Source: an uncultured cyanobacterium (GTDB taxonomy: Bacteria > Cyanobacteriota > Cyanobacteriia > Cyanobacteriales > CAWCAG01). From it: a DNA stretch of 64,000 nt. Positions 7,335 through 19,632 of the stretch are shown here, piece after piece (the first letter of the stretch is position 1; the number at the start of each line of letters is the position of its first letter). Under the pieces are notes generated by a model. That model searched no databases, was not told the origin of the DNA, and saw only the letters and a program-made list of their open reading frames with translations. A program made the position numbers and the translations under genes. Location: positions 448,001 through 512,000 of the forward strand of contig CAWDOD010000011.1 in the NCBI GenBank assembly GCA_963803805.1. Reading direction: 5' to 3'.

Positions 7335-7496
7335 TGAGAAGATTGGGGGAAGTAATAAGTAATAAGTAATAACTTTTGAATATACTATTCCCCTTAGTCT
7401 ACGGTAGCGCTACGCAAACCCCTTTTCCCTTACCTCCTAAGATAAGCTAACTTAAGGGAAGATAGATAAAGTTTCCCATGCTTGGAAGATGATGAT

Positions 7497-9251
7497 ATGA
7501 CCTCAAGGGATGATTTAAGAGAGGCGATTAAGGCAGGCAAGTTAGCTGATGCCCTAGTGATGGCAATGAGTAATGCGGTAGAGTTGAACATCACTACCTG
7601 GATTACTTCAGAAGATAATAACTCAGAGTTAGCTAAGCAAAAAAAGCCAGAAAGAAGTCTGCGTAGTCAAATCAACTTAGTTGAGGGCAAAATCAAAAAT
7701 GAAGTAGGGGAACAATTTGTTGATAGCAATACCCATAAAGAATTGAAGCGGTTTCACCTCGAACAGGTATTGCAAGGCAATAAAACAATTAGAGATAATA
7801 TTGTAAGTTTACAAAAACTATTTCAGCTATTACAGGCAATCCAAAAACATCAAGGGGATAAAGCACTTTCTCAAGAAGCTTTACTAGATTTATTTAGTTC
7901 CACAGTTTCTAGTGAAGCAGAAATAAATCTAGTTTCTCCTGGGGCTACAACCCTAGAAGTAGAATCAGAAGAACCAGAGGTAGATGACGACTGGGATGAT
8001 TCTGTGTTGGATATTTTTGAATCTCTTCCTAATCAAGAAGCTTCAGATGATATTCCCTTTAGCCCTAATTCGGAAACGGAGTTAGTGATAGAAGCTTCGG
8101 GAAGCGATTTGTTGATGCCAACTCCAGAAATGCCAACTACTGATTTAGAAATAGAAGATTGGGAAGAAGCAAAGGTAGAATTTCAGTCTGTTGAGTCAGA
8201 GTGGGAAGATGAAACTACCGAAGAGAGTGTTTTGAGTTTAGATGATTTAGATGTTACCCCAGAAGAGGAAGAAGATTGGGGGGATTTATTAGAAGAAGAA
8301 GAATCTACATCAGCACAAAGATTAGTTGGGTTAGAGGAAGAAGTTGAAGTTGAGTTAGAACCAGAATTTGTTGTTAAACAAGAGAGGGATGCAATATCTC
8401 CTCAAGTTATTCAAGAGGTTATTGAGGAAGAGGAAGAGGAAGACTGGGGAGATTATTTAGTAACAGAAACTTCTGATAATCTAGAAAGTGTTGCTGAAGC
8501 GAGAGAGGATAATTCTTCTGAAATAGAAACCATTGAAGCAGAATCTGCGACAGTTATTCAAGAGGTTATTGAGGAAGAGGAAGAGGAAGACTGGGGAGAT
8601 TATTTAGTAGCAGAAACTCCTGATAATCTAGAAATTGTTGCTGAAGTACGAGAAGATAATTCTTCTGAAATAGAAACCATTGAAGCAGAATCTGCGACAG
8701 TTATTCAAGAAGCTATTGAGGGAGAGGAAGAAGAAGATTGGGGAGATTATTTAGTCGTAGAAACTCCTGGTGATTCAGAAATTGTTACTCAAGTACAAGA
8801 AGATAATTCTTCTGAAGAAGAAGATTTCTTTGTCACAGAAGCAAAAGCAAATGTTTTTGAATCTGAGTCCCTAACAGAAGATGATGATGAAGATTGGGGA
8901 GATTGGTTAGAAGAAGAAACTGATTCAATACCAGAGGAATTTGTAGAAATAACTCCTTCTGGTGTAACAACTTACCAAGCCCCCATTGTTCCTAACCTTG
9001 ACTCCTTAGACTTAGAAGATGATGATGATTGGGAAAAAGAGGAACAAACTATTGATACCTTTGCTGTTTCCTATGATGAGGCTACTTTGTTAGATTCAGA
9101 TTTTGAGGAAGATTGGGATGAGTTTTCTATTGAAGAATTAGAACCTTACTCTAACCTAAATATTGAGGAATCAAAAGAGCAACAAATGCCTTCGGAAACT
9201 GTTAAGGGCGACTTAAATCAAGATAAGGAAGATAAAACTAATGACAAATGA
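7497..9251 (+). CDS. Hypothetical protein, member 2: shared N-terminal domain plus long acidic low-complexity tail
   Basis: N-terminal ~120 aa paralogous to 6945..7334; E/D-rich tail with repeated EEDWGD motifs. Confidence 0.85.
   Translation: MTSRDDLREAIKAGKLADALVMAMSNAVELNITTWITSEDNNSELAKQKKPERSLRSQINLVEGKIKNEVGEQFVDSNTHKELKRFHLEQVLQGNKTIRDNIVSLQKLFQLLQAIQKHQGDKALSQEALLDLFSSTVSSEAEINLVSPGATTLEVESEEPEVDDDWDDSVLDIFESLPNQEASDDIPFSPNSETELVIEASGSDLLMPTPEMPTTDLEIEDWEEAKVEFQSVESEWEDETTEESVLSLDDLDVTPEEEEDWGDLLEEEESTSAQRLVGLEEEVEVELEPEFVVKQERDAISPQVIQEVIEEEEEEDWGDYLVTETSDNLESVAEAREDNSSEIETIEAESATVIQEVIEEEEEEDWGDYLVAETPDNLEIVAEVREDNSSEIETIEAESATVIQEAIEGEEEEDWGDYLVVETPGDSEIVTQVQEDNSSEEEDFFVTEAKANVFESESLTEDDDEDWGDWLEEETDSIPEEFVEITPSGVTTYQAPIVPNLDSLDLEDDDDWEKEEQTIDTFAVSYDEATLLDSDFEEDWDEFSIEELEPYSNLNIEESKEQQMPSETVKGDLNQDKEDKTNDK
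8406..8820 (+). repeat. Intragenic 147-bp (49-aa) tandem repeat, about 2.8 copies
   Basis: GTTATTCAAGA... unit starts at 8406, 8553 and 8700. Confidence 0.9.
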
Positions 9252-10101
9252 ACTTAAAAGGAATACTAATGAAGGAGATATTTCCCATTTTAGTTTACAA
9301 AAAAGTCTCAATAATTTTGTGGCTTCTATGGGTAATGTCCTCACGGATATTACGGCATTAGAAGTAAATACCATGGTAGTTGACCACATTAGTGGTGACA
9401 AGTTTATGCCTTGGAAAACTTATCAAGATATCTATGCCATTGATCGGGCTTATTTAAAACAACACGAGGTTCATCAATCTTTGTGGGAACCTTATATGGA
9501 ACTACGCAAAGAACTCGAACTTAACTATATGTCTCTTCTTGGTGATCCAGATTCTAGCTTATACAGTCCCCAAAAAGTATCTTCTATGAAAGGGGAATCT
9601 GAGGCGATTAGCGATCCGAATGGGACAATGGAAGAGATGGTTACAGGATTGCCAAATCCTTTCGATCAAGATAGTCCCAAAGAACAAGGAGATATCCGTA
9701 GTTTGTTTGCCGATAGTCGTTTCTTGCGCTGTTTGCGTAAAATGGGAGAATTGAAAACTGCTTTAGATAATCGCAACCGTTCCTTAATTGAAGAAACAGC
9801 AGAACATGAAAGTTATGTAGCTTCGGAAGTCATTGAAAATACGGTTAAAACTGATATTATCTATGCTCAAACAGTAATTCAGCTTGATGGTGATATTATT
9901 AACCGTTTTTCCGATAAAATATTCGATCATCCCCATCGAGATTTAATTCTACAAATCCACAAAATTAGTGTCGAAAATGGTGAAAAAGAATGGCGGGGTT
10001 TATTGGGATTTGTTATTGATATAGTCCAAGCTGGTTTAGAAAAAGGTATTGGTACTGGGCTAAATTTTATAGGACGTAGCAATAATTCTGACAAAAATTG
10101 A
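9241..10101 (+). CDS. Hypothetical protein, member 3 of cluster
   Basis: Overlaps upstream stop; TALEVNTMVV and AQTVIQLDGDIINRF motifs. Confidence 0.85.
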   Translation: MTNELKRNTNEGDISHFSLQKSLNNFVASMGNVLTDITALEVNTMVVDHISGDKFMPWKTYQDIYAIDRAYLKQHEVHQSLWEPYMELRKELELNYMSLLGDPDSSLYSPQKVSSMKGESEAISDPNGTMEEMVTGLPNPFDQDSPKEQGDIRSLFADSRFLRCLRKMGELKTALDNRNRSLIEETAEHESYVASEVIENTVKTDIIYAQTVIQLDGDIINRFSDKIFDHPHRDLILQIHKISVENGEKEWRGLLGFVIDIVQAGLEKGIGTGLNFIGRSNNSDKN

Positions 10102-10247
10102 TAATTGTAGTGGGATACCGCACCGGCGTAATGAAGTCGAAACAAAACACCACCAAAGTTACGCATCCGCAAGGGGACAAGGGGAAGGGAATGCGCACAG
10201 ATTGATAATTAAAAAGGTAACAAGGATAGAGAATTTTTAGTTGAGAT

Positions 10248-11027
10248 GTGAACAATAATCGTCTTCAAAAAGAAACAGAGAAAATAGATTCTCAAAAGAG
10301 CGTAGGCAAAGCCCACCGGAGATATCGCCATTTGTTAAAAACTTTAAATTTGGATGATTATATTCAAGTAATTAAAGAACGAGATCAGCACAAGCAGGAA
10401 GTTATTTACGGTTTTAATCTTAACTTGAATTCAGAAGTAATTTCTTTATTTAAAGAAGTCCAAACAGATAAAATTACTGTTAAACTTAGCAAAAAATTAC
10501 TCAATGATTTTCGCTACTATGCTCTTTTTGGTCAAGGAAATAGCTTTGATACAGGAATGACTTTTTGTACTTATTACCAGCAGGATGACTTTTCTCAACC
10601 AGTAATAAGAAGTTTTATTTCTCTTGATGGAGATATTGTTCAACAAATTGGCAATGATTGCTTAACTTCGCCACAACTTACCTTAGATATTATTCGCACT
10701 CACTATTGGTTAATCAACTGTTTAATTGCTGAATTACGCCTAGATATGACCAATAAGTTAAATGGGATTTCTTGGTTACTATCTTTATTAACTGTAGGAG
10801 GATTTAGTGCTACTAATTTAGAACAAATTCAAAACTTAGACCCAATTACCTATTTTGTACCAATTATTATGTCTTGGTTTTTTAAACAAGGTTTTCAAAG
10901 ATTACTATGGTTAATTGTACCTCGTTTAGGACGTTGGTTTGTACGGCAAATGTTATTTGGTATTTTCTCAAAGACGCAAAAAATGAGAGAAATGGCTTTG
11001 AAGGTTTTGGGGACAATTGGAGTTTGA
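10248..11027 (+). CDS. Hypothetical membrane protein, member 4 of cluster
   Basis: RSFISLDGDIVQQIG motif; hydrophobic C-terminal segments. Confidence 0.8.
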   Translation: MNNNRLQKETEKIDSQKSVGKAHRRYRHLLKTLNLDDYIQVIKERDQHKQEVIYGFNLNLNSEVISLFKEVQTDKITVKLSKKLLNDFRYYALFGQGNSFDTGMTFCTYYQQDDFSQPVIRSFISLDGDIVQQIGNDCLTSPQLTLDIIRTHYWLINCLIAELRLDMTNKLNGISWLLSLLTVGGFSATNLEQIQNLDPITYFVPIIMSWFFKQGFQRLLWLIVPRLGRWFVRQMLFGIFSKTQKMREMALKVLGTIGV

Positions 11028-12089: not shown

Positions 12090-12216
12090 TCATTATTTGG
12101 CTTGCCGTTTTTGTAGACTAATAGGAAATAAGCCCTAAAACCCTCTCCCCATCAAACCTAATAAGTAAATTAAATGCCTGACAGCTTACCCCTTACCTAG
12201 CCTTTTTAGAAGTAAA

Positions 12217-12888: not shown

Positions 12889-12983
12889 TTGTTCATCAAA
12901 AGTAGGAAAGAGTTACCGTTTTTTTCAACTAAGAGAACTCCCATAAATCAACAAATAAAATATCCTCACCAAGTATAAAATTT

Positions 12984-13030
12984 TAGCAACTAGCCATTAG
13001 CAACTAGCAACTAGCCATTAGCAACTGCTA
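12984..13030 (+). repeat. Heptameric STRR-type repeat (TAGCAAC/TAGCCAT)
   Basis: About 6 tandem heptamers; same family at ~35236-35266 and ~17589-17618. Confidence 0.8.
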
Positions 13031-13086: not shown

Positions 13087-16000
13087 ATGCCAGTAATTAC
13101 GGTTCGGGAAGAAGGGCAGACGGAGACAGGATTTAGGGCTAGTTTACATTTTGATGGGGTGGGGAATTTTCCTTTAACTATCACCGAACCCTTTACATCG
13201 AAGCAGGAAGGGGAGTTGGAGTGGTATTTTGAGAGGTGGTTGAATCGCCCTCACCTGAATCAAGTTAAGGCAGAAAGGGCGGCGGGGAGTGTGAGAGATT
13301 ATGGGGAGGATTTGTTTAAGCAGGTATTTAAAAGTGATTTTGATGCTTATGGTGAGTATAAGCAGTTGCGGGGGAATTTATCAGAAGTAGAAATAGTGAT
13401 TGAAAGTCGTACTCCGGAGTTTCAGGCTTTGCATTGGGAGGCGATGTTAGATCCGGATTTGCCTCGCCCTTTGGCTGTGGATGCGGTGATGGTAAGGAAG
13501 ACGGTTAAAAGGGTGGCGGTAGAAGGAGAGGTTGATGTTTCTCCGGTGATTAATTTGTTGGTGGTGACTGCCCGCCCGAATGAAGATGATGATATTGCTT
13601 ATCGGGCAACTTCTCGCCCTTTAATCGCTGCAATTGAGAATAGTCAAGTGCCTGTGAATGTGGATTTGTTGCGCCCTGGTACTTATGAAGCTTTGGTTAG
13701 GCATTTGGAGGAAAAGCAGGCGGGTTTTTATCATATTATCCATTTTGATGGACATGGTAGTTTGGCGAGTTATGAACAGTTAAAAAGTATTGTTGAGAGT
13801 CCTTCTAAGCTGCTTAAGCGCTACGGTAGAGAAGATTTAGAAGCTTATGAAGGGGTGAAAGCTTTTCTCTATTTTGAAGGAGAAAAGAAAGGGAATGCAG
13901 ATCCGGTGGAAGCGCAAGAGTTTACTGATTTGTTGACGGGAAAGAGGATTCCGGTTTGCATTTTGGATGCTTGTCAGTCGGGGAAGCAGATTAGGGAAAT
14001 GGGGAAATGGGGAGATGGGGGGAAAGAGGAAGCGGAGATTAATGGAGGCAGAGAATCTTCCCAAGACAATTCTAGAGATTCCTCCGAGGCGGAAACTAGC
14101 CTGGGTAGTCGTTTGATGGCGGCGGGGATGCAGATGGTTATTGCTATGAGTTATTCTGTCACTGTTTCGGCTGCTGGGTTGTTGATGGCAGAAATGTATC
14201 GTCATCTTTGTGACAAAAAGTCTTTCCGGGAAGCCATTAGGTTGGGGCGGTTGGAGTTGTTTAACAACAAGGAGAGAAAGGCTGGTTGGAATCAAACTAT
14301 TAAATTAGAAGATTGGTTATTACCAGTGGTTTATTCCCATCGCCCTGTTGAATTGGGTTTGCGGGAATTTACCCCCCAGGAAGAAGAGGATTTTTATAAT
14401 TCCCAAGGGGATGAATATCGCTTTCCGCAACCGGAATATGGTTTTCTGGGGAGGGAGTTGGAGATATTGAAGATTGAAAAGGCTTTGTTGCGCCACAATA
14501 TCCTTTTGTTGCAAGGTATGGGAGGGACAGGCAAAACTACCCTGTTGAATTATTTGCGGGAATGGTGGCAAGTTACCAACTTTGCGGAGAAGATATTTTA
14601 TTTTGGTTATGATGAGAAGCCTTGGAGTTTAGAACAAATTGTTCACAACTTGGGTAAGGGAATTTATGACAGGTTTAAGCAAGCAAGCTTCCAAGCCATG
14701 AATCCCAAGGCACAGGCACAGAAGTTAATTAAGGAGTTGAAAAGTAACAATTATATTCTCATCCTCGATAACCTAGAATCTGTGACGGGGCAACAGTTGG
14801 CAATTCAAAATACCCTGACGAAGGAACAACAGGAAGAGTTACGCAACTTCCTTAGCCAGTTAAAGGGCGGTAAAACTAAAATAATTTTCGGTTCCCGCAG
14901 TGGGGAAGAGTGGCTGCAAAAGCAAACCTTTCAAAGCAACAGCTATCAACTCCCCGGCTTAGATCCCCAATCCCGTTCAACTTTGGCAGAGAGAATCTTG
15001 CAACGTCAGGTAGGGGATGAGGAAAAGATTACTAATTATCGCCAAAGTGAAGATTTTAACCGCTTGATGACATTGTTGGGGGGTTATCCTTTAGCCATGG
15101 AAGTTGTCTTAGCTAACCTGAAGCAACAAACTCCCACGGAAGTTTTGGCAGGGATGGAAGCCGGGGAAATTGCTTTGGATAGCGGGAGTGAGGAGAAGAC
15201 GGCGAGTATTGTTAAATGTGTGGAATATTCCCACAGTAACTTATCTCCGCAAGCACAAAGGTTATTGTTGTGTTTAGCACCTTTTCGGAAATTTATTGAT
15301 AGCCGGGATATTCCTAATTATGCCAAGCAGTTGCAGAAGTTAGCACCTTTTCAAAGTTACGACTTTACTAACTTTGCTGGGGCGATTGAGGAGGCGATTA
15401 GTTGGGGTTTGCTTTCGCCCATGGGAGATGATTCTCCTTTGCTGACGATACAGCCGGTATTTCCCTATTTTTTGAAGACGAAATTAAAAGAATTGGAGGA
15501 GGAGACTGGGGCAGCATTGGAGGAGGGGTTTAAAAATCATTACGTTGCTTTGGCGAATTATTATAATCATTTGATGGAGTCTAAGGAGGCGGAAAAGAGG
15601 AAGTTAGGCATCTTTTTCTGTGGCTTGGAATATGAGAATCTTTATAGTGCTTTGCAGGTTTGTTTGCGGAAGCAGGAAACTGTGGATATTTTCTTTTGCT
15701 TGGATCAGTACTTAGAGTTGATTAATGATATTCCTAGTGGGTTGAAGTTAGCAGAGTTTGTGGTTGAGGTGCAGGTTGCTTATCCGGAAGAAATTAGAAG
15801 GGGTGAGATAGGTTGGGAAATAGTTATGGCACAGGATAGATTGGCTTACTGTTACTTGGAAATGCAACGTTACCAAGAAGCTAAGGAAGCTTATGGGAAA
15901 GTAGCAGAGTTGTCTCAAGAATTAACAGGAATAGAAGAGAAGGAAAAGCAAAAGTATTTAGCTACTACCCGGCATAACTTGGGATATGTAGCCCAGGAGT

Positions 16001-16776
16001 TACGGGAGTTTGCCCAGGCACAGCAGTACTATCAACAAGCTTTGGATATCAAAATTGCCTATGGGGATACCCACTCCCAAGCTAGTACCCTGCATCAGTT
16101 GGGAAGAGTGGCACAGGAGTCACGGGAGTTTGCCCAGGCACAGCAGTATTATCAACAAGCTTTGGATATCTATGTTGAATATGGGGATACCTACTCCCAA
16201 GCTGGAACCCTGCATGACTTGGGATATGTAGCCCAGGAGTCACGGGAGTTTGCCCAGGCACAGCAGTACTATCAACAAGCTTTGGATATCAAAATTGCCT
16301 ATGGCGATACCCACTCTCAAGCTAGTACCCTGCATCACTTGGGATATGTAGCCCAGGAGTCACGGGAGTTTGCCCAGGCACAGCAGTACTATCAACAAGC
16401 TTTGGATATCAAAATTGCCTATGGCGATACCCACTCTCAAGCTAAAACCCTGCATCACTTGGGAATGGTGGCACAGGAGTTACGGGAGTTTGCCCAGGCA
16501 CAGCAGTACTTTCAACAAGCTTTTGATATCTATGTTGAATATGGCGATCGCTACTCCCAAGGTGGAATCCTTGGACAATTAGGCTTGTTAGCAGAGGCTC
16601 AGGAGGATTATGAGCAAGCAAGGAGTTATTTGCAGCAAGCTTTAGAGATTTATGTAGAGTTTCAGGATGAATATTATATTGAGGTGGTGCAACGGAATTT
16701 GGAGAGGCTGGGGAATCGGGAAAAGGAAGTGAAAAGATTGCTGTTGAGATTAAAAGCTTTTTACGAGAATCTTTAG
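13087..16776 (+). CDS. CHAT (caspase-like) protease - STAND/NB-ARC NTPase - TPR protein
   Basis: HFDGHG and LDACQSG catalytic motifs; Walker A GMGGTGKT; Walker B LILDNLE; GGYPLAM; C-terminal TPRs. Confidence 0.92.
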   Translation: MPVITVREEGQTETGFRASLHFDGVGNFPLTITEPFTSKQEGELEWYFERWLNRPHLNQVKAERAAGSVRDYGEDLFKQVFKSDFDAYGEYKQLRGNLSEVEIVIESRTPEFQALHWEAMLDPDLPRPLAVDAVMVRKTVKRVAVEGEVDVSPVINLLVVTARPNEDDDIAYRATSRPLIAAIENSQVPVNVDLLRPGTYEALVRHLEEKQAGFYHIIHFDGHGSLASYEQLKSIVESPSKLLKRYGREDLEAYEGVKAFLYFEGEKKGNADPVEAQEFTDLLTGKRIPVCILDACQSGKQIREMGKWGDGGKEEAEINGGRESSQDNSRDSSEAETSLGSRLMAAGMQMVIAMSYSVTVSAAGLLMAEMYRHLCDKKSFREAIRLGRLELFNNKERKAGWNQTIKLEDWLLPVVYSHRPVELGLREFTPQEEEDFYNSQGDEYRFPQPEYGFLGRELEILKIEKALLRHNILLLQGMGGTGKTTLLNYLREWWQVTNFAEKIFYFGYDEKPWSLEQIVHNLGKGIYDRFKQASFQAMNPKAQAQKLIKELKSNNYILILDNLESVTGQQLAIQNTLTKEQQEELRNFLSQLKGGKTKIIFGSRSGEEWLQKQTFQSNSYQLPGLDPQSRSTLAERILQRQVGDEEKITNYRQSEDFNRLMTLLGGYPLAMEVVLANLKQQTPTEVLAGMEAGEIALDSGSEEKTASIVKCVEYSHSNLSPQAQRLLLCLAPFRKFIDSRDIPNYAKQLQKLAPFQSYDFTNFAGAIEEAISWGLLSPMGDDSPLLTIQPVFPYFLKTKLKELEEETGAALEEGFKNHYVALANYYNHLMESKEAEKRKLGIFFCGLEYENLYSALQVCLRKQETVDIFFCLDQYLELINDIPSGLKLAEFVVEVQVAYPEEIRRGEIGWEIVMAQDRLAYCYLEMQRYQEAKEAYGKVAELSQELTGIEEKEKQKYLATTRHNLGYVAQELREFAQAQQYYQQALDIKIAYGDTHSQASTLHQLGRVAQESREFAQAQQYYQQALDIYVEYGDTYSQAGTLHDLGYVAQESREFAQAQQYYQQALDIKIAYGDTHSQASTLHHLGYVAQESREFAQAQQYYQQALDIKIAYGDTHSQAKTLHHLGMVAQELREFAQAQQYFQQAFDIYVEYGDRYSQGGILGQLGLLAEAQEDYEQARSYLQQALEIYVEFQDEYYIEVVQRNLERLGNREKEVKRLLLRLKAFYENL
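15961..16680 (+). repeat. 120-bp (40-aa) TPR tandem repeats: five near-identical plus one diverged cap
   Basis: Units start at 15961, 16081, 16201, 16321, 16441, 16561. Confidence 0.95.
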
Positions 16777-16988
16777 CAACGGAACTACACTTAGTATCTG
16801 GTCAAATTTCTAATTATCGTCTAGCCTTAGCTGATGCTGGAATTGAGAGAAAACTTTATCTAGCTGTTGTCAGTCAAGCTTATCAAAAGATAATTGGTAA
16901 GCGGTTTGCACAAAGAATTATTGAATATAATCAGATTAATATAATTGTTGTTGACTCTATCAGAGAGGAGGTAGTGCAGTGGCTTTAG
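16731..16988 (+). pseudogene. xisH: 5'-truncated XisH family gene (not in ORF track)
   Basis: Translates EKIAVEIKSFLRESLATELHLVSGQISNYRLAL...RKLYLAV...IIVVDSIREEVVQWL*; lacks the N-terminal part; directly upstream of xisI. Confidence 0.85.
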
Positions 16989-17305
16989 ATTACGCAAAGT
17001 TGGTTGAAGATATTATAGAAAAACGTCACCGGAAAAGCTCTCCCGGTCAAGTTAGAGTAGAAAAAGTTATCGATAGAGAGAATCAACATTATCTTTTAAT
17101 CCAAGTAGGCTGGAAAAACAATAAATGTCACTATGGTTGTCTTTTGCACCTAGATATAATCGACGGCAAAATCTACATTCAGCAAAACAATACCGAAGAT
17201 TTTATTGCTCAGAACTTAGTGGAATTAGGAGTGCCAAAAAGTGATATTGTTCTGGGTATTCACGCTCCTTTTGAAAGACAGTTTACCGAGTATGCTATCA
17301 GTTGA
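16979..17305 (+). CDS. xisI: XisI family protein
   Basis: HYLLIQVGW, HLDIIDGKIYIQQNNTE, LVELGVPKSDIVLG. Confidence 0.92.
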   Translation: MALDYAKLVEDIIEKRHRKSSPGQVRVEKVIDRENQHYLLIQVGWKNNKCHYGCLLHLDIIDGKIYIQQNNTEDFIAQNLVELGVPKSDIVLGIHAPFERQFTEYAIS

Positions 17306-17580: not shown

Positions 17581-17710
17581 TATCTTAACCATTAGCTATT
17601 AGCCATTAGCTATTAGCAATCGGTTTTAGTTTTTTCTATTTCGTGATAAAGCGATCGCACTTTTGCTAGTTTTGTATAATCAAATCATCAGCTTCGTCAA
17701 CACAACAAAA

Positions 17711-18028
17711 ATGACTTTTATAAGCACTGACTACAAATACATTCAAATTAATGAAAACAAAGTTCCTATCATTGCTGGAACCACCATGAAAGTAGTCGAA
17801 TTAATCACTTCAGTTAAAGCTTATAATTGGACTCCCGAACAACTCCACCAGAATTATCCATACCTTTCTATGAGTAAGATTTACTCTGCTTTGGCTTACT
17901 ACTGGGATCATCAAAAAGAACTTGATACAGATATGGAAAGACGTTATCAGTTTGCTGAGAAAATGCGGCGAGAAGCAACCCATACTTCTTTAGCTGAAAA
18001 ACTAAAAGCTAGAGGGTTTGTCAAGTGA
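17711..18028 (+). CDS. DUF433 family putative antitoxin
   Basis: PIIAGTTMKV, TPEQLHQNYPYLS..IYSALAYYWDH. Confidence 0.9.
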   Translation: MTFISTDYKYIQINENKVPIIAGTTMKVVELITSVKAYNWTPEQLHQNYPYLSMSKIYSALAYYWDHQKELDTDMERRYQFAEKMRREATHTSLAEKLKARGFVK

Positions 18029-18373
18029 CTATAGCTCTTTATATGGATGAGCAAGTCCCCAAAGCCATTACTGTTAGTTTACGACAAAGAGATGTTGATG
18101 TTCTCTCTATTCAAGAGGATAGTCGCAGTGGCTACCCTGACCCCATTTTACTTGACCGGGCAACGGAATTAGAAAGAGTTATGTTTTCGCAAGATGACTC
18201 TTTCTTAGCTGAAGCACATCGCCGTCAAACAGAAGGAGTAGATTTTGCTGGTGTTATCTATGCTCATCAAAAAAAATATTTCTCTTGGAGATTGTATCCG
18301 CGATTTGGAAATAGTTGCTAAGGTTTTGGAACCAGAGGATTGCGCTAATCTTGTGCATTATCTCCCTCTATAA
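18025..18373 (+). pseudogene. DUF5615 PIN-like toxin, frameshifted at an A8 run
   Basis: LYMDEQVP..D..LLDRA..SQDDSF; removing one A at 18269-18276 gives QKNISLGDCIRDLEIVAKVLEPEDCANLVHYLPL*. Confidence 0.85.
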
Positions 18374-18732: not shown

Positions 18733-19632
18733 ATGAAAACTCTATTCCCAAGCATCACCATTGCCACCATCACTGGCACTATCGTCAGTCTAGGGGCAAT
18801 AGCTAATCCTGCTGAAGCTGCTAGCTTCAACTTTTCTTATACCCTCAATAGCGGAGATATCATCAGTGGGATGCTAGAAGGGGAAGTTCAAGATGATAAT
18901 GATACGGTCATCGTTTCAGAAATTAGTATGCCCAGCTTAAACGATGAACTTGGCCCCGAATTGCCTTTTATTGAATCTATAGCTGAAATTGTTTCAGGAC
19001 TTGATTTGGCCACCTTACTTAGGTTACTCAGCTCAGACTCACCTTCTTTCGGATCTTTAGTTGACCTTACAGCAGGGCCTTCTGGAACTCCAAAAGTTAG
19101 CTTCAGTGGCTCAGTTATGGATATTATCACCTGCTCTCTTCCAGAATGTGATGATGGCTTTGCGTTTGAAAGTAAGGGTTTGTTTATTGGTGGTGCGCCT
19201 TTTTTCAGTAGCAGTCCATCTTATGGTAATAGCCCTGCTGAACTCTATGATCCAACCAATTGGCAGCTTACAGCTAAAACCCCAACACCTGAACCAACCC
19301 CAACACCAACTCCAACACCAACTCCAACCCCTGAACCAACCCCAACACCAACTCCAACCCCTGAACCAACCCCTGAACCAACTCCAACCCCTACACCAAC
19401 TCCAACCCCAACCCCAACTCCAACTCCAACCCCTGAACCAACACCAACTCCAACTCCAACCCCTGAACCAACCCCAACCCCTGAACCAACCCCAACACCT
19501 GAATCAACACCAACTCCAACTCCAACCCCAACATCAGAACCGACTTCTATACCAGAACCAACTTCTATATTAGGTCTTCTCGCTATGGGTGCTTTGGGGG
19601 TTGCTTCCAAATTAAAGGGCCGCAAAAAGTAG
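18733..19632 (+). CDS. PEP-CTERM sorted surface protein with long Pro-Thr linker
   Basis: Signal peptide ending AEA-A; (PT/PE)n tract; [25 protein letters not shown]. Confidence 0.93.

What the first reader, a model, noticed from the sequence alone, without database searches (positions are those of the whole stretch)
15961..16560. TPR sensor repeats are near-identical mosaics varying at a few codons
Seen: five 120-bp units are almost invariant except codon 2 (T,S,G,S,K), codon 6 (N,Q,D,H,H), codon 9 (Y,R,Y,Y,M), codon 14 (L/S) and a two-allele tail block (KIA..TH versus YVE..TY/RY). Changes are mostly multi-base and non-synonymous. Spacing 2/6/9 falls on one helix face. Inference: concerted evolution and repeat shuffling diversify ligand specificity, as in fungal HET-E-type NLR repeats.
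Basis: partly seen in the sequence, partly recalled or inferred. Interest (0 to 1): 0.7.

Follow-up and report, generated by a model that had tools for sequence, protein, structure and literature searches.

The report
Hypervariable TPR sensor of cyanobacterial NLR
Five near-identical 40-residue TPR repeats form the probable ligand-sensing tail of a cyanobacterial caspase-like immune-type switch protein, and they differ mainly at a few groove-facing residues, a pattern already known from fungal and some bacterial receptors.

Summary
Window 15961-16560 is five in-frame 120-bp units (83-97.5% nt identity, no indels) inside one 1229-aa gene (13087-16776, +). The gene encodes a CHAT protease, an NB-ARC-type STAND NTPase and a TPR domain.

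- In 116 homologous cyanobacterial arrays, within-array variation is highest at unit positions 2, 9, 31, 6 and 39.
- In 50 arrays with DNA, these five codons have pN/pS of 1.6-2.4 (bootstrap intervals above 1). All codons outside the seven I treated as hypervariable (these five plus 12 and 13) give 0.37.
- Synonymous distance is about 0.17 between units of one array and 0.71-0.77 between homologous genes, which indicates concerted evolution.
- Database proteins with 95% or more identical N-terminal parts differ in unit number or in unit sequence.

Positions 39', 2, 6, 9 and 13 lie on one face of helix A. Position 9 aligns with the ligand-binding Asn of the LGN/Pins TPR groove.

Not shown: the ligand, the function, the 3D location of position 31, and the order of the inner units (short-read contigs do not bridge the array).

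This is a new member of a known kind: high-internal-conservation NLR repeats are described in fungi and noted for bacteria. The scan has flagged the same pattern in other genomes.

The parts
13087..16776 (+). Whole gene, 1229 aa: CHAT protease, NB-ARC-type STAND NTPase and TPR domain
   Evidence: ORF listing and translation. Pfam domains. Full-length homologs begin with the same MxVITIRE N-terminus.
13384..14295 (+). CHAT (caspase-like) protease domain, residues about 100-403. His223 and Cys296 are invariant in 35 aligned homologs.
   Evidence: Pfam PF12770 scores 61.5 bits against a cut-off of 24. Invariant columns H223 and C296.
14449..15696 (+). STAND NTPase module (nucleotide-binding, helical and winged-helix parts, then a helical linker), residues about 455-870. 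Walker A is GMGGTGKT (K483) and Walker B is LILD (D561). Borders are approximate.
   Evidence: Pfam NB-ARC 23.0 bits (cut-off 23.5), NACHT 23.0 (26.7) and AAA_22 24.9 (27) are all just below threshold. Invariant motifs. The AlphaFold model (pLDDT 82.8) matches plant NLR NB-ARC, CED-4, Apaf-1 and MalT at E 1e-9 to 1e-6.
15700..15960 (+). Degenerate N-terminal TPR-like helices that precede the array and are not homogenised
   Evidence: Helices H11-25 to H58-73 of the model. No repeat identity with the array.
15961..16080 (+). Unit U1 (type A: Y9, KIA31-33, H38)
16081..16200 (+). Unit U2 (type B: R9, YVE31-33, Y38)
16201..16320 (+). Unit U3 (type A). Differs from U4 only in codons 2 and 6.
16321..16440 (+). 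Unit U4 (type A)
16441..16560 (+). Unit U5 (type B: M9, YVE31-33, R37, Y38, F24, F28)
16561..16773 (+). Degenerate cap TPR and C-terminal helix. 48-56% nt and 30-45% aa identical to the inner units, and conserved with the caps of homologs.

Best explanation
The array is the central part of the TPR sensor of a single-gene NLR-like protein: an N-terminal CHAT protease, an NB-ARC-type STAND NTPase and a C-terminal TPR superhelix.

Shown:
- Recombination between the 120-bp units (unequal crossing-over or gene conversion) keeps the scaffold of the units nearly identical within each genome.
- The same process changes unit number and order between close relatives.
- Amino-acid diversity is kept or favoured at unit positions 2, 6, 9, 31 and 39, and more weakly at 12 and 13.
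- Positions 39', 2, 6, 9 and 13 form one stripe on helix A.

Inferred by homology to LGN/Pins and to canonical TPRs: this stripe lines the inner groove where a ligand would be bound.

Inferred from other STAND proteins, not shown here: ligand binding releases autoinhibition, the NTPase module oligomerises, and the CHAT protease domains are brought together and activated. The result would be cell death or growth arrest, as a defence or non-self response.
For: Architecture and intact catalytic motifs.

The TPR model has pLDDT 93.9 and superposes on the peptide-binding LGN/Pins TPR domain at TM about 0.8 and rmsd 2.4-3.0 A over about 350 columns.

Within-array variation in 116 arrays (723 units) has mismatch fractions of 0.76, 0.76, 0.71, 0.54 and 0.50 at positions 2, 9, 31, 6 and 39. 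Positions 17, 18, 22, 23 and 29 differ between arrays but not within them.

pN/pS is above 1 at five codons in 50 arrays, and stays so when the window's array is left out. Codon pN exceeds the array's own pS in 49, 46, 43, 35 and 35 of 50 arrays for codons 2, 31, 9, 6 and 39.

In the window alone, pN is 0.584 at codons 2, 6 and 9 and 0.024 at the 32 codons outside these three and the tail block (31-33, 37, 38), against an array-wide pS of 0.134.

Concerted evolution. Mosaic structure. Array turnover between near-identical genes.

The same positions vary in five other 40-residue TPR arrays of this genome: L004 and L005-L008.

Literature passages read: TPR positions 2, 5, 9, 12, 13, 33 and 34 are the hypervariable concave positions, and 2, 5, 6, 9, 12 and 13 bind ligand in HOP (PMC1261162). 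The Asn of the LGN triplets binds the ligand in the inner groove (PMC3438535).

The gene has a patchy distribution. It was not found in the congener or in the other genome searched in the same family (G002), but it was found in 10 of 60 relatives searched.
Against: - No ligand, no expression data and no phenotype.
- The pN/pS figures are Nei-Gojobori p-distances pooled over related arrays. They are not a recombination-aware codon model.
- Local pS at the hypervariable codons is also raised (0.23-0.46), so the ratio to local pS is only about 1.1-1.5.
- The arrays are phylogenetically related, so the bootstrap intervals are too narrow.
- The groove location rests on helix periodicity and homology, not on measured coordinates.
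- Position 31 lies at the C-terminal end of helix B, and its orientation is unknown.
- The gene matches no model of a known defence system in PADLOC beyond a generic TPR model and a weak mads_8 hit.
- Its neighbours here are housekeeping or small mobile-type genes.
- The database proteins compared are representatives of 90% clusters, and some come from short-read assemblies that can mis-build repeats.
Confidence: 0.75

Rival explanations
1. Neutral explanation. The units are recent duplicates, and the variable positions are simply the least constrained exposed residues. There is no selection for diversity and no link to ligand range.
For: The variable positions are predicted to be surface positions. 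Local synonymous differences at the same codons are also raised. No formal codon model was run.
Against: Neutral sites homogenised together with their neighbours should give pN equal to pS. Five codons give 1.6-2.4 times the array-wide pS, with intervals above 1. The same five positions recur in 35-49 of 50 arrays. U3 and U4 are identical at all scaffold codons but differ at codons 2 and 6. Other helix-surface positions (for example 18, 22, 29) differ between arrays but stay uniform within them.
Confidence: 0.1
2. The TPR array binds an endogenous partner or serves self-assembly or regulation (for example developmental control, as for the CHAT protein HetF). It would not be a sensor of foreign molecules.
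For: No defence-system model matches and there is no defence island around the gene. A conserved ~140-residue neighbour in 42 of 80 homologous loci suggests a fixed partner.
Against: A fixed endogenous ligand does not explain diversifying positions, unit turnover between near-identical genes, or absence from the congener. The conserved neighbour is absent from this genome.
Confidence: 0.1
3. Assembly artefact: the array is collapsed, expanded or chimeric in this assembly.
For: No contig of the one public run bridges 16149-16481. 7 of 66 homologous ORFs run off a contig end in or at the array.
Against: The array is in frame without indels. Both edges and the U1-U2 junction are confirmed without a difference. 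The same 40-residue periodic arrays with 4-13 units occur in 116 of the 120 listed homologs. Homologous loci were also fetched from chromosome-level records, though I did not tabulate their unit counts separately.
Confidence: 0.04
4. Targeted mutagenesis by a diversity-generating retroelement.
For: Variation is confined to a few codons. DGRs are described beside NTPase conflict systems of multicellular bacteria (PMC7159879, passages).
Against: There is no second (template) copy of the unit anywhere in the genome; all 3 DNA matches lie inside the array. The variable bases are not limited to template adenines. By recall, known DGR targets have lectin-type or FGE-type folds, not TPR.
Confidence: 0.01

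Closest known systems
Fungal NLRs with highly internally conserved (HIC) TPR repeats, e.g. [quoted passage not shown] 2014, PMC4986451 (abstract and passages read)
   Same: An NB-ARC-type NTPase followed by TPR units 80-95% identical to each other. Repeat-number polymorphism. Positive selection at a few sites that map to the concave side. The proposed mechanism is concerted evolution plus shuffling.
   Different: Bacterial, not fungal. The effector is a CHAT protease. The unit is 40 residues, not mostly 42. Selection here is shown only by pN/pS counts across species, not within a population.
   Same: The same evolutionary regime: near-identical repeats, hypervariable ligand-face positions and shuffling (PMC12222747 passages; PMC4986451).
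   Different: WD40 beta-propeller and NACHT there; TPR solenoid and NB-ARC-like module here. It works alike but is not a family member.
HIC repeats in bacterial NLR-like proteins, as noted in Dyrka et al. 2020 (bioRxiv 10.1101/2020.01.06.895854, section 16 passage) and Ament-Velasquez et al. 2026 (PMC13449251, section 12 read whole)
   Same: Exactly this class: bacterial NB-ARC/TPR or NACHT/WD proteins with 80-90% identical repeats. The abbreviation list in the legend of Fig. 8, whose panel c shows curated NLR-like architectures, includes CHAT.
   Different: Those texts state the occurrence and propose diversification. In the passages I read they give no per-position analysis for a bacterial family.
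LGN/Pins TPR domain (PDB 5a7d, 6hc2, 3sf4, 4a1s)
   Same: The closest solved fold (TM about 0.8) and the best sequence match (E 7e-15). About eight 40-residue TPRs bind extended peptides in the inner groove. The Asn of the Leu-Gly-Asn triplet corresponds to unit position 9.
   Different: A eukaryotic scaffold protein without NTPase or protease. Its repeats are not near-identical, and position 9 is conserved rather than hypervariable.
Bacterial antiviral STAND NTPases (Avs families, bNACHT); PMC13581612 passages
   Same: An effector, a STAND NTPase and a TPR-like sensor that binds one phage protein and triggers oligomerisation. Caspase-like N-terminal effectors and cyanobacterial Apaf-1-like relatives are mentioned.
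   Different: No PADLOC Avs or bNACHT model matches this protein. Avs sensors are described as shape-complementary domains, not as arrays of near-identical units. No phage data exist for this family.
42PR TPR-like proteins with high internal sequence identity (Marold et al. 2015, Structure)
   Same: A natural TPR-like array with very high internal identity.
   Different: The paper is not held. I saw only its title in reference lists, and anything more would be recall.

Membership tests
TPR (Pfam clan; TPR_12/TPR_10 type) | Sequence match above the curated threshold and a helix-turn-helix solenoid fold | tested here: met
   TPR_12 scores 138.5 bits (cut-off 30.1) and TPR_10 scores 100.4 (27.5). 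The model has paired 17-residue helices. The fold matches the LGN/Pins and consensus TPR superhelices.
HIC (highly internally conserved) NLR repeats | Units about 80-90% or more identical within one protein | tested here: met
   nt identity 83-97.5%. Mean aa identity 0.82, and 0.90-0.95 among U1, U3 and U4. Units of one array share a recent origin.
HIC (highly internally conserved) NLR repeats | Repeat-number polymorphism between close relatives | tested here: inconclusive
   Met in the family: 52 of 88 pairs with 95% or more identical pre-array parts differ in unit number. No second strain of this organism was available, and some of the records are short-read assemblies.
HIC (highly internally conserved) NLR repeats | Diversifying selection at positions of the binding surface | tested here: met
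   pN/pS is 1.6-2.4 at codons 2, 6, 9, 31 and 39. Positions 2, 6, 9, 39 (and 13) were mapped by helix periodicity and homology. The location of position 31 was not measured. No recombination-aware model was run.
STAND / NB-ARC (AP-ATPase) NTPases, NLR architecture | Pfam NB-ARC or NACHT above the gathering score | tested here: not met
   NB-ARC 23.0 bits against 23.5; NACHT 23.0 against 26.7. This is a near miss at sequence level.
STAND / NB-ARC (AP-ATPase) NTPases, NLR architecture | P-loop NTPase with Walker A/B followed by helical and winged-helix domains, with a fold like Apaf-1/CED-4/plant NLRs; tripartite effector-NOD-repeat order | tested here: met
   GMGGTGKT and LILD are invariant. 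The top 30 or so fold matches are plant NLR NB-ARC, CED-4, Apaf-1 and MalT (E 1.6e-9 to 8e-7, 363-482 aligned columns). Domain order is CHAT-NTPase-TPR.
CHAT proteases (PF12770) | Match above threshold and a conserved His/Cys dyad | tested here: met
   61.5 bits against 24. H223 and C296 are invariant in 35 homologs. Activity was not tested.
Known anti-phage systems (Avs, bNACHT and others in PADLOC 2.0) | Match to a system's protein model | tested here: not met
   Only a generic TPR model, two candidate models over the TPR part and a weak mads_8 hit (E 1.8e-6) match. The NCBIfam hits are all far below their cut-offs.
HET-E/NWD family | NACHT NTPase with WD40 repeats | tested here: not met
   The repeats are TPR, and the NTPase fold is closest to NB-ARC proteins.
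DGR variable-region targets | A template repeat elsewhere in the genome and adenine-directed changes | tested here: not met
   The unit occurs only inside this array. The variable sites involve all bases.

The most novel reading that the evidence does not exclude
The CHAT/NB-ARC/TPR family would be a germline-encoded, fast-diversifying receptor repertoire of cyanobacteria. It has at least 1072 database proteins at E<=1e-50 and 260 loci in species-representative genomes. Each 40-residue unit carries a five-to-seven-residue 'code' (positions 39', 2, 6, 9, 12, 13, 31), and unit shuffling re-deals that code between strains. In about half of the loci the protease would act on a conserved ~140-residue membrane-anchored neighbour as executioner.

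If true, this would be a bacterial counterpart of fungal HIC NLRs, with a defined specificity code and a defined downstream target.
Probability: 0.3. Interest if true: 0.65.

Novelty: new member of a known kind. Interest (0 to 1): 0.35.

Why it matters
The result adds a well-quantified bacterial example to a rule so far documented mainly in fungi. The rule is that immune-type STAND receptors can keep their repeat scaffold uniform by recombination while varying a handful of ligand-facing residues.

The per-position map (2, 6, 9, 31, 39, and more weakly 12 and 13) gives a concrete set of residues to mutate or swap when looking for ligands of this large, uncharacterised cyanobacterial family.

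It also warns annotators and assemblers that these arrays break short-read contigs and differ between near-identical strains.

Tried and rejected
- DNA search for the unit elsewhere in the genome found only the array itself. There is therefore no paralogous donor at DNA level and no DGR template.
- Sequence searches of the PDB with the CHAT part and with the NTPase part gave nothing meaningful. The NTPase was then classified by fold.
- PADLOC and NCBIfam gave no family name.
- Direct geometric mapping of the variable residues failed.
- Reads: only one run holds the stretch, and it is kept as contigs. They confirm the edges but do not bridge the array. Bins 16312-16425 have no cover, which says nothing either way.
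- Marold et al. 2015 is not held.
- Kaur et al. 2020 (PMC7159879) had no passage on near-identical repeats.
- Literature searches listed no paper with a per-position analysis of HIC TPR repeats in a bacterial CHAT-NLR family. I did not see supplements or subscription papers.
- Synteny with the congener G001: the Rieske and ClpB neighbours map about 150 kb apart there. No clean empty site could be defined.
- The search of earlier findings for this place returned nothing.
Full report
**What is there.** Tandem Repeats Finder reports window 15960-16561 as five head-to-tail copies of a 120-bp unit with 88% matches and no indels. The units are in frame inside one long ORF, 13087-16776 on the + strand, encoding 1229 aa.
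- codon 2 is T,S,G,S,K
- codon 6 is N,Q,D,H,H
- codon 9 is Y,R,Y,Y,M
- codon 14 is L,S,S,S,L
- the tail is KIA..TH in U1, U3 and U4, YVE..TY in U2 and YVE..RY in U5

Pairwise nucleotide identity is 83.3-97.5%. 25 of 120 nucleotides and 17 of 40 codons vary; 12 of these codons change the amino acid and 5 are synonymous only.

**Unit types and mosaic.** The units fall into two types: A (U1, U3, U4) and B (U2, U5). The types also differ at linked synonymous sites in codons 10 and 11. Other sites (codons 2, 14, 35, 39) partition the units differently, and 30 of 78 pairs of informative sites fail the four-gamete test. The array is therefore a mosaic produced by exchange between units or by recurrent change.

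**The gene.** Pfam finds three parts:
- a CHAT protease domain (residues 100-403, 61.5 bits against a cut-off of 24)
- a P-loop NTPase at about 455-640 that just misses the NB-ARC (23.0 against 23.5) and NACHT thresholds
- TPR_12/TPR_10 repeats from 915 to about 1200

In an alignment of 35 full-length homologs the CHAT His223 and Cys296, the Walker A GMGGTGKT and the Walker B LILD are invariant. An AlphaFold model of residues 440-900 (pLDDT 82.8) matches plant NLR NB-ARC modules, CED-4, Apaf-1, MalT and an archaeal STAND-TPR protein (E 1.6e-9 to 7e-6). The protein therefore has the effector, NOD and repeat order of an NLR-like STAND protein.

It matches no known defence-system model in PADLOC and no named NCBIfam family. 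Its neighbours here are a Rieske oxygenase, MntP, XisI, a DUF433/DUF5615 pair, a PEP-CTERM protein and ClpB. It stands alone at this locus.

**Structure of the repeat.** A model of residues 872-1229, built with 59 homologs, has pLDDT 93.9. Each 40-residue unit is two 17-residue helices: helix A runs from position 37 of the previous unit to position 13, and helix B covers positions 17-33. Three-residue turns join them.

The unit register coincides with canonical TPR numbering (L7, G8, A20, Y24, A27). On helix A, positions 39', 2, 6, 9 and 13 lie within an arc of 80 degrees. The conserved core positions 4, 7, 8 and 11 lie opposite.

The model superposes on the LGN/Pins TPR domain (TM about 0.8, rmsd 2.4-3.0 A over about 350 columns). 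LGN/Pins is also the best sequence match in the PDB. In that alignment the triplet L7-G8-X9 falls on the Leu-Gly-Asn triplets of Pins. A review of the LGN structures states that these Asn residues make bidentate hydrogen bonds to the ligand main chain in the inner groove (PMC3438535, passages).

Magliery and Regan report that positions 2, 5, 9, 12, 13, 33 and 34 are the hypervariable positions on the concave face of TPRs in general. They also report that 2, 5, 6, 9, 12 and 13 contact the ligand in HOP (PMC1261162, passages). Position 39 of the 40-residue unit stands two residues before the next position 1, as canonical position 33 does.

I could not measure this on coordinates. Position 31, at the end of helix B, remains unplaced.

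**Relatives.** A protein search gave 1072 hits at E<=1e-50 among the 7999 candidates scored. Of the 120 listed, every one whose name carries an organism comes from cyanobacteria, and they are annotated only as TPR or CHAT proteins. 116 of the 120 have a strictly 40-residue periodic array of 4-13 units followed by a degenerate cap.

Over these 116 arrays (723 units) the median within-array identity is 0.82, the same as here. Within-array mismatch is concentrated as follows:

| Unit position | Within-array mismatch |
|---|---|
| 2 | 0.76 |
| 9 | 0.76 |
| 31 | 0.71 |
| 6 | 0.54 |
| 39 | 0.50 |
| 13 | 0.40 |
| 12 | 0.39 |

Positions 17, 18, 22, 23 and 29 differ strongly between arrays but hardly within them. 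The cap is only 30-45% identical to the inner units of its own protein, and its median identity to the caps of homologs is 50%. Homogenisation therefore spares the ends of the array.

**DNA evidence.** A scan of species-representative genomes found 260 loci encoding a relative, and 80 were fetched. 66 ORFs carried the P-loop motif and at least one unit. 50 arrays, including the window's, had three or more units.

Pooled with equal weight per array, pS among units is 0.219 and pN is 0.129. The ratio of pN to the array-wide pS, with bootstrap intervals over arrays, is:

| Codon | pN / array-wide pS | Bootstrap interval |
|---|---|---|
| 2 | 2.41 | 2.10-2.79 |
| 31 | 2.30 | 1.95-2.71 |
| 9 | 2.21 | 1.82-2.71 |
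| 39 | 1.93 | 1.53-2.39 |
| 6 | 1.57 | 1.27-1.91 |
| 12 | 0.98 | 0.72-1.28 |
| 13 | 0.89 | 0.70-1.13 |
| the other 33 codons, pooled | 0.37 | not computed |

The figures barely change when the window's array is left out.

In the window alone, pN is 0.584 at codons 2, 6 and 9, 0.347 in the tail block (31-33, 37, 38) and 0.024 at the 32 codons outside those two sets, against pS 0.134. 11 of the window's 25 variable nucleotides fall in the 15 nt of the five family-defined codons (P = 3e-6). The three differences between U3 and U4 all do so (P = 0.0016).

Caveats on these figures:
- They are p-distance counts, not a recombination-aware model.
- Local pS at the same codons is also raised.
- The arrays are related, so the intervals are too narrow.

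**Concerted evolution and turnover.** The synonymous p-distance between the pre-array part of this gene and 49 homologs is 0.71-0.77. Between this array's units and those of other arrays it is 0.51 or more (median 0.71). Within arrays the median is 0.17, and it is 0.13 here.

I built a tree of 42 units from 9 of the 66 arrays: the window's plus eight I picked, most of them among its closest relatives. The seven variable codons were masked. The tree needs 9 changes of array label where 8 is the minimum. Shuffled labels need 29.4 on average, and 0 of 200 shuffles are as low. The window's five units form a group with 97% SH-aLRT support.

Among the 116 database proteins, 88 pairs have pre-array parts 95% or more identical. 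One pair has identical arrays, 52 differ in unit number and 35 in unit sequence. Examples:
- P0086 and P0090 have 100% identical N-terminal parts. One unit differs at positions 2, 3, 6, 38 and 39.
- P0023 and P0029 differ at position 9 in three units.

Because the database is clustered at 90%, identical proteins are collapsed, so these counts show that turnover occurs, not how often. Some records may also carry assembly errors.

The gene was found in 10 of 60 related genomes searched (E<=1e-30). It was not found in the congener or in the other genome searched in the same family, G002. In the congener the flanking genes lie about 150 kb apart.

**Paralogs.** The 120-bp unit itself occurs nowhere else in the genome. 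The genome does hold several other 40-residue TPR arrays. Four belong to TPR-CHAT proteins (L005-L008, mean unit identity 0.67-0.76). One belongs to an NTPase-TPR protein (L004; 7.1 copies, 94% nt matches). Their most variable positions again include 2, 9, 12, 13, 31 and 38/39.

**Assembly.** One public run holds 63% of the sampled words of the stretch. Its contigs match 15822-16148 and 16482-17012 without a difference, but none crosses the array. The inner unit order is therefore unverified. The regular frame and the family-wide architecture make an artefact unlikely.

**Mechanism.**
- Shown: the scaffold is homogenised, units are shuffled, and diversity is focused at five positions, four of which lie on one helix face.
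- Inferred by homology: that face lines the ligand groove.
- Inferred by analogy with Apaf-1, plant NLRs and bacterial Avs proteins: ligand binding drives NTP-dependent oligomerisation, which activates the CHAT protease. (In Avs proteins TPR-like sensors bind a single phage protein; PMC13581612 passages.)

Rivals considered were neutral drift at exposed sites, an endogenous partner, misassembly and a DGR. argue against each of them, as set out in the Rival explanations section.

**Comparison with what is known.**
- Dyrka et al. 2014 described fungal NLRs whose WD, ANK and TPR repeats are highly conserved internally. These repeats show repeat-number polymorphism and positive selection at sites on the concave side (PMC4986451).
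- Dyrka et al. 2020 state that bacterial NLRs also have WD and TPR repeats with 80-90% internal identity that 'might similarly' diversify rapidly (bioRxiv 2020.01.06.895854).
[quoted passage not shown] The abbreviation list of its Fig. 8 legend, whose panel c shows curated NLR-like architectures, includes CHAT (PMC13449251, section 12).

This scan has also reported the same pattern on other genomes. The present case is therefore a new, well-supported member of a known kind. What it adds is a family-wide per-position map and synonymous-site evidence for a cyanobacterial CHAT/NB-ARC/TPR family. I did not find such an analysis in the searches; I did not see supplements or subscription papers.

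Noticed in passing
L043:2462-2899 (-) and 41 further loci; absent from the window's genome: A conserved ORF of about 140 residues with no Pfam family. It has a soluble N-terminal part and a hydrophobic C-terminal stretch. It lies within about 0.1-2 kb of the CHAT-NTPase-TPR gene in 42 of 80 homologous loci. In most loci it is downstream on the opposite strand; in the Crocosphaera loci it is upstream and divergent. tblastn finds none in this genome. It may be a partner or substrate of the protease.
   Followed up: partly
G000:C6:206725-209418 (L004): A second NLR-like gene: a P-loop NTPase (GLTGQGKT) followed by seven LGN-type 40-residue TPR units with 94% nt matches. The units vary at the equivalents of positions 2, 9, 12, 13 and 31.
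   Followed up: partly
G000: L005-L010, L013 (TPR-CHAT), L011 (paralogous CHAT-NTPase-TPR, 25% identity), L015 (nSTAND1-WD40 with a 123-bp period, 10.7 copies): The genome carries a large set of repeat-bearing CHAT and STAND proteins, several with internally similar repeats.
   Followed up: partly
window 12949-13025 and 12122-12188: Short dispersed repeats lie just upstream of the gene. The first contains a TAGCAAC heptamer run (12984-13026) and matches about 40 places in the congener G001. The second matches several places there.
   Followed up: no
window 17663-18028 and 18025-18321: Overlapping DUF433 and DUF5615 genes, which look like a toxin-antitoxin-type pair. They lie downstream of an XisI gene (16979-17305).
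   Followed up: no
window 18733-19632: A PEP-CTERM protein with a low-complexity Pro/Thr/Glu-rich tandem region (19278-19541, periods 12, 18, 30 and 42).
   Followed up: no
window 7482-11027: Three consecutive ORFs (589, 286 and 259 aa) match no family in Pfam, NCBIfam or PADLOC.
   Followed up: no
loci L043, L044, L048, L052, L074, L100, L111: In 7 of 66 homologous ORFs the contig ends inside or at the TPR array, so these arrays break short-read assemblies.
   Followed up: no
G000:C2:889827-891315, C6:171142-172433, C10:343543-344491 and others: The genome holds many other long tandem repeats with 95-98% identity, with periods of 387, 211/423, 131 and 135 bp. I did not examine them.
   Followed up: no
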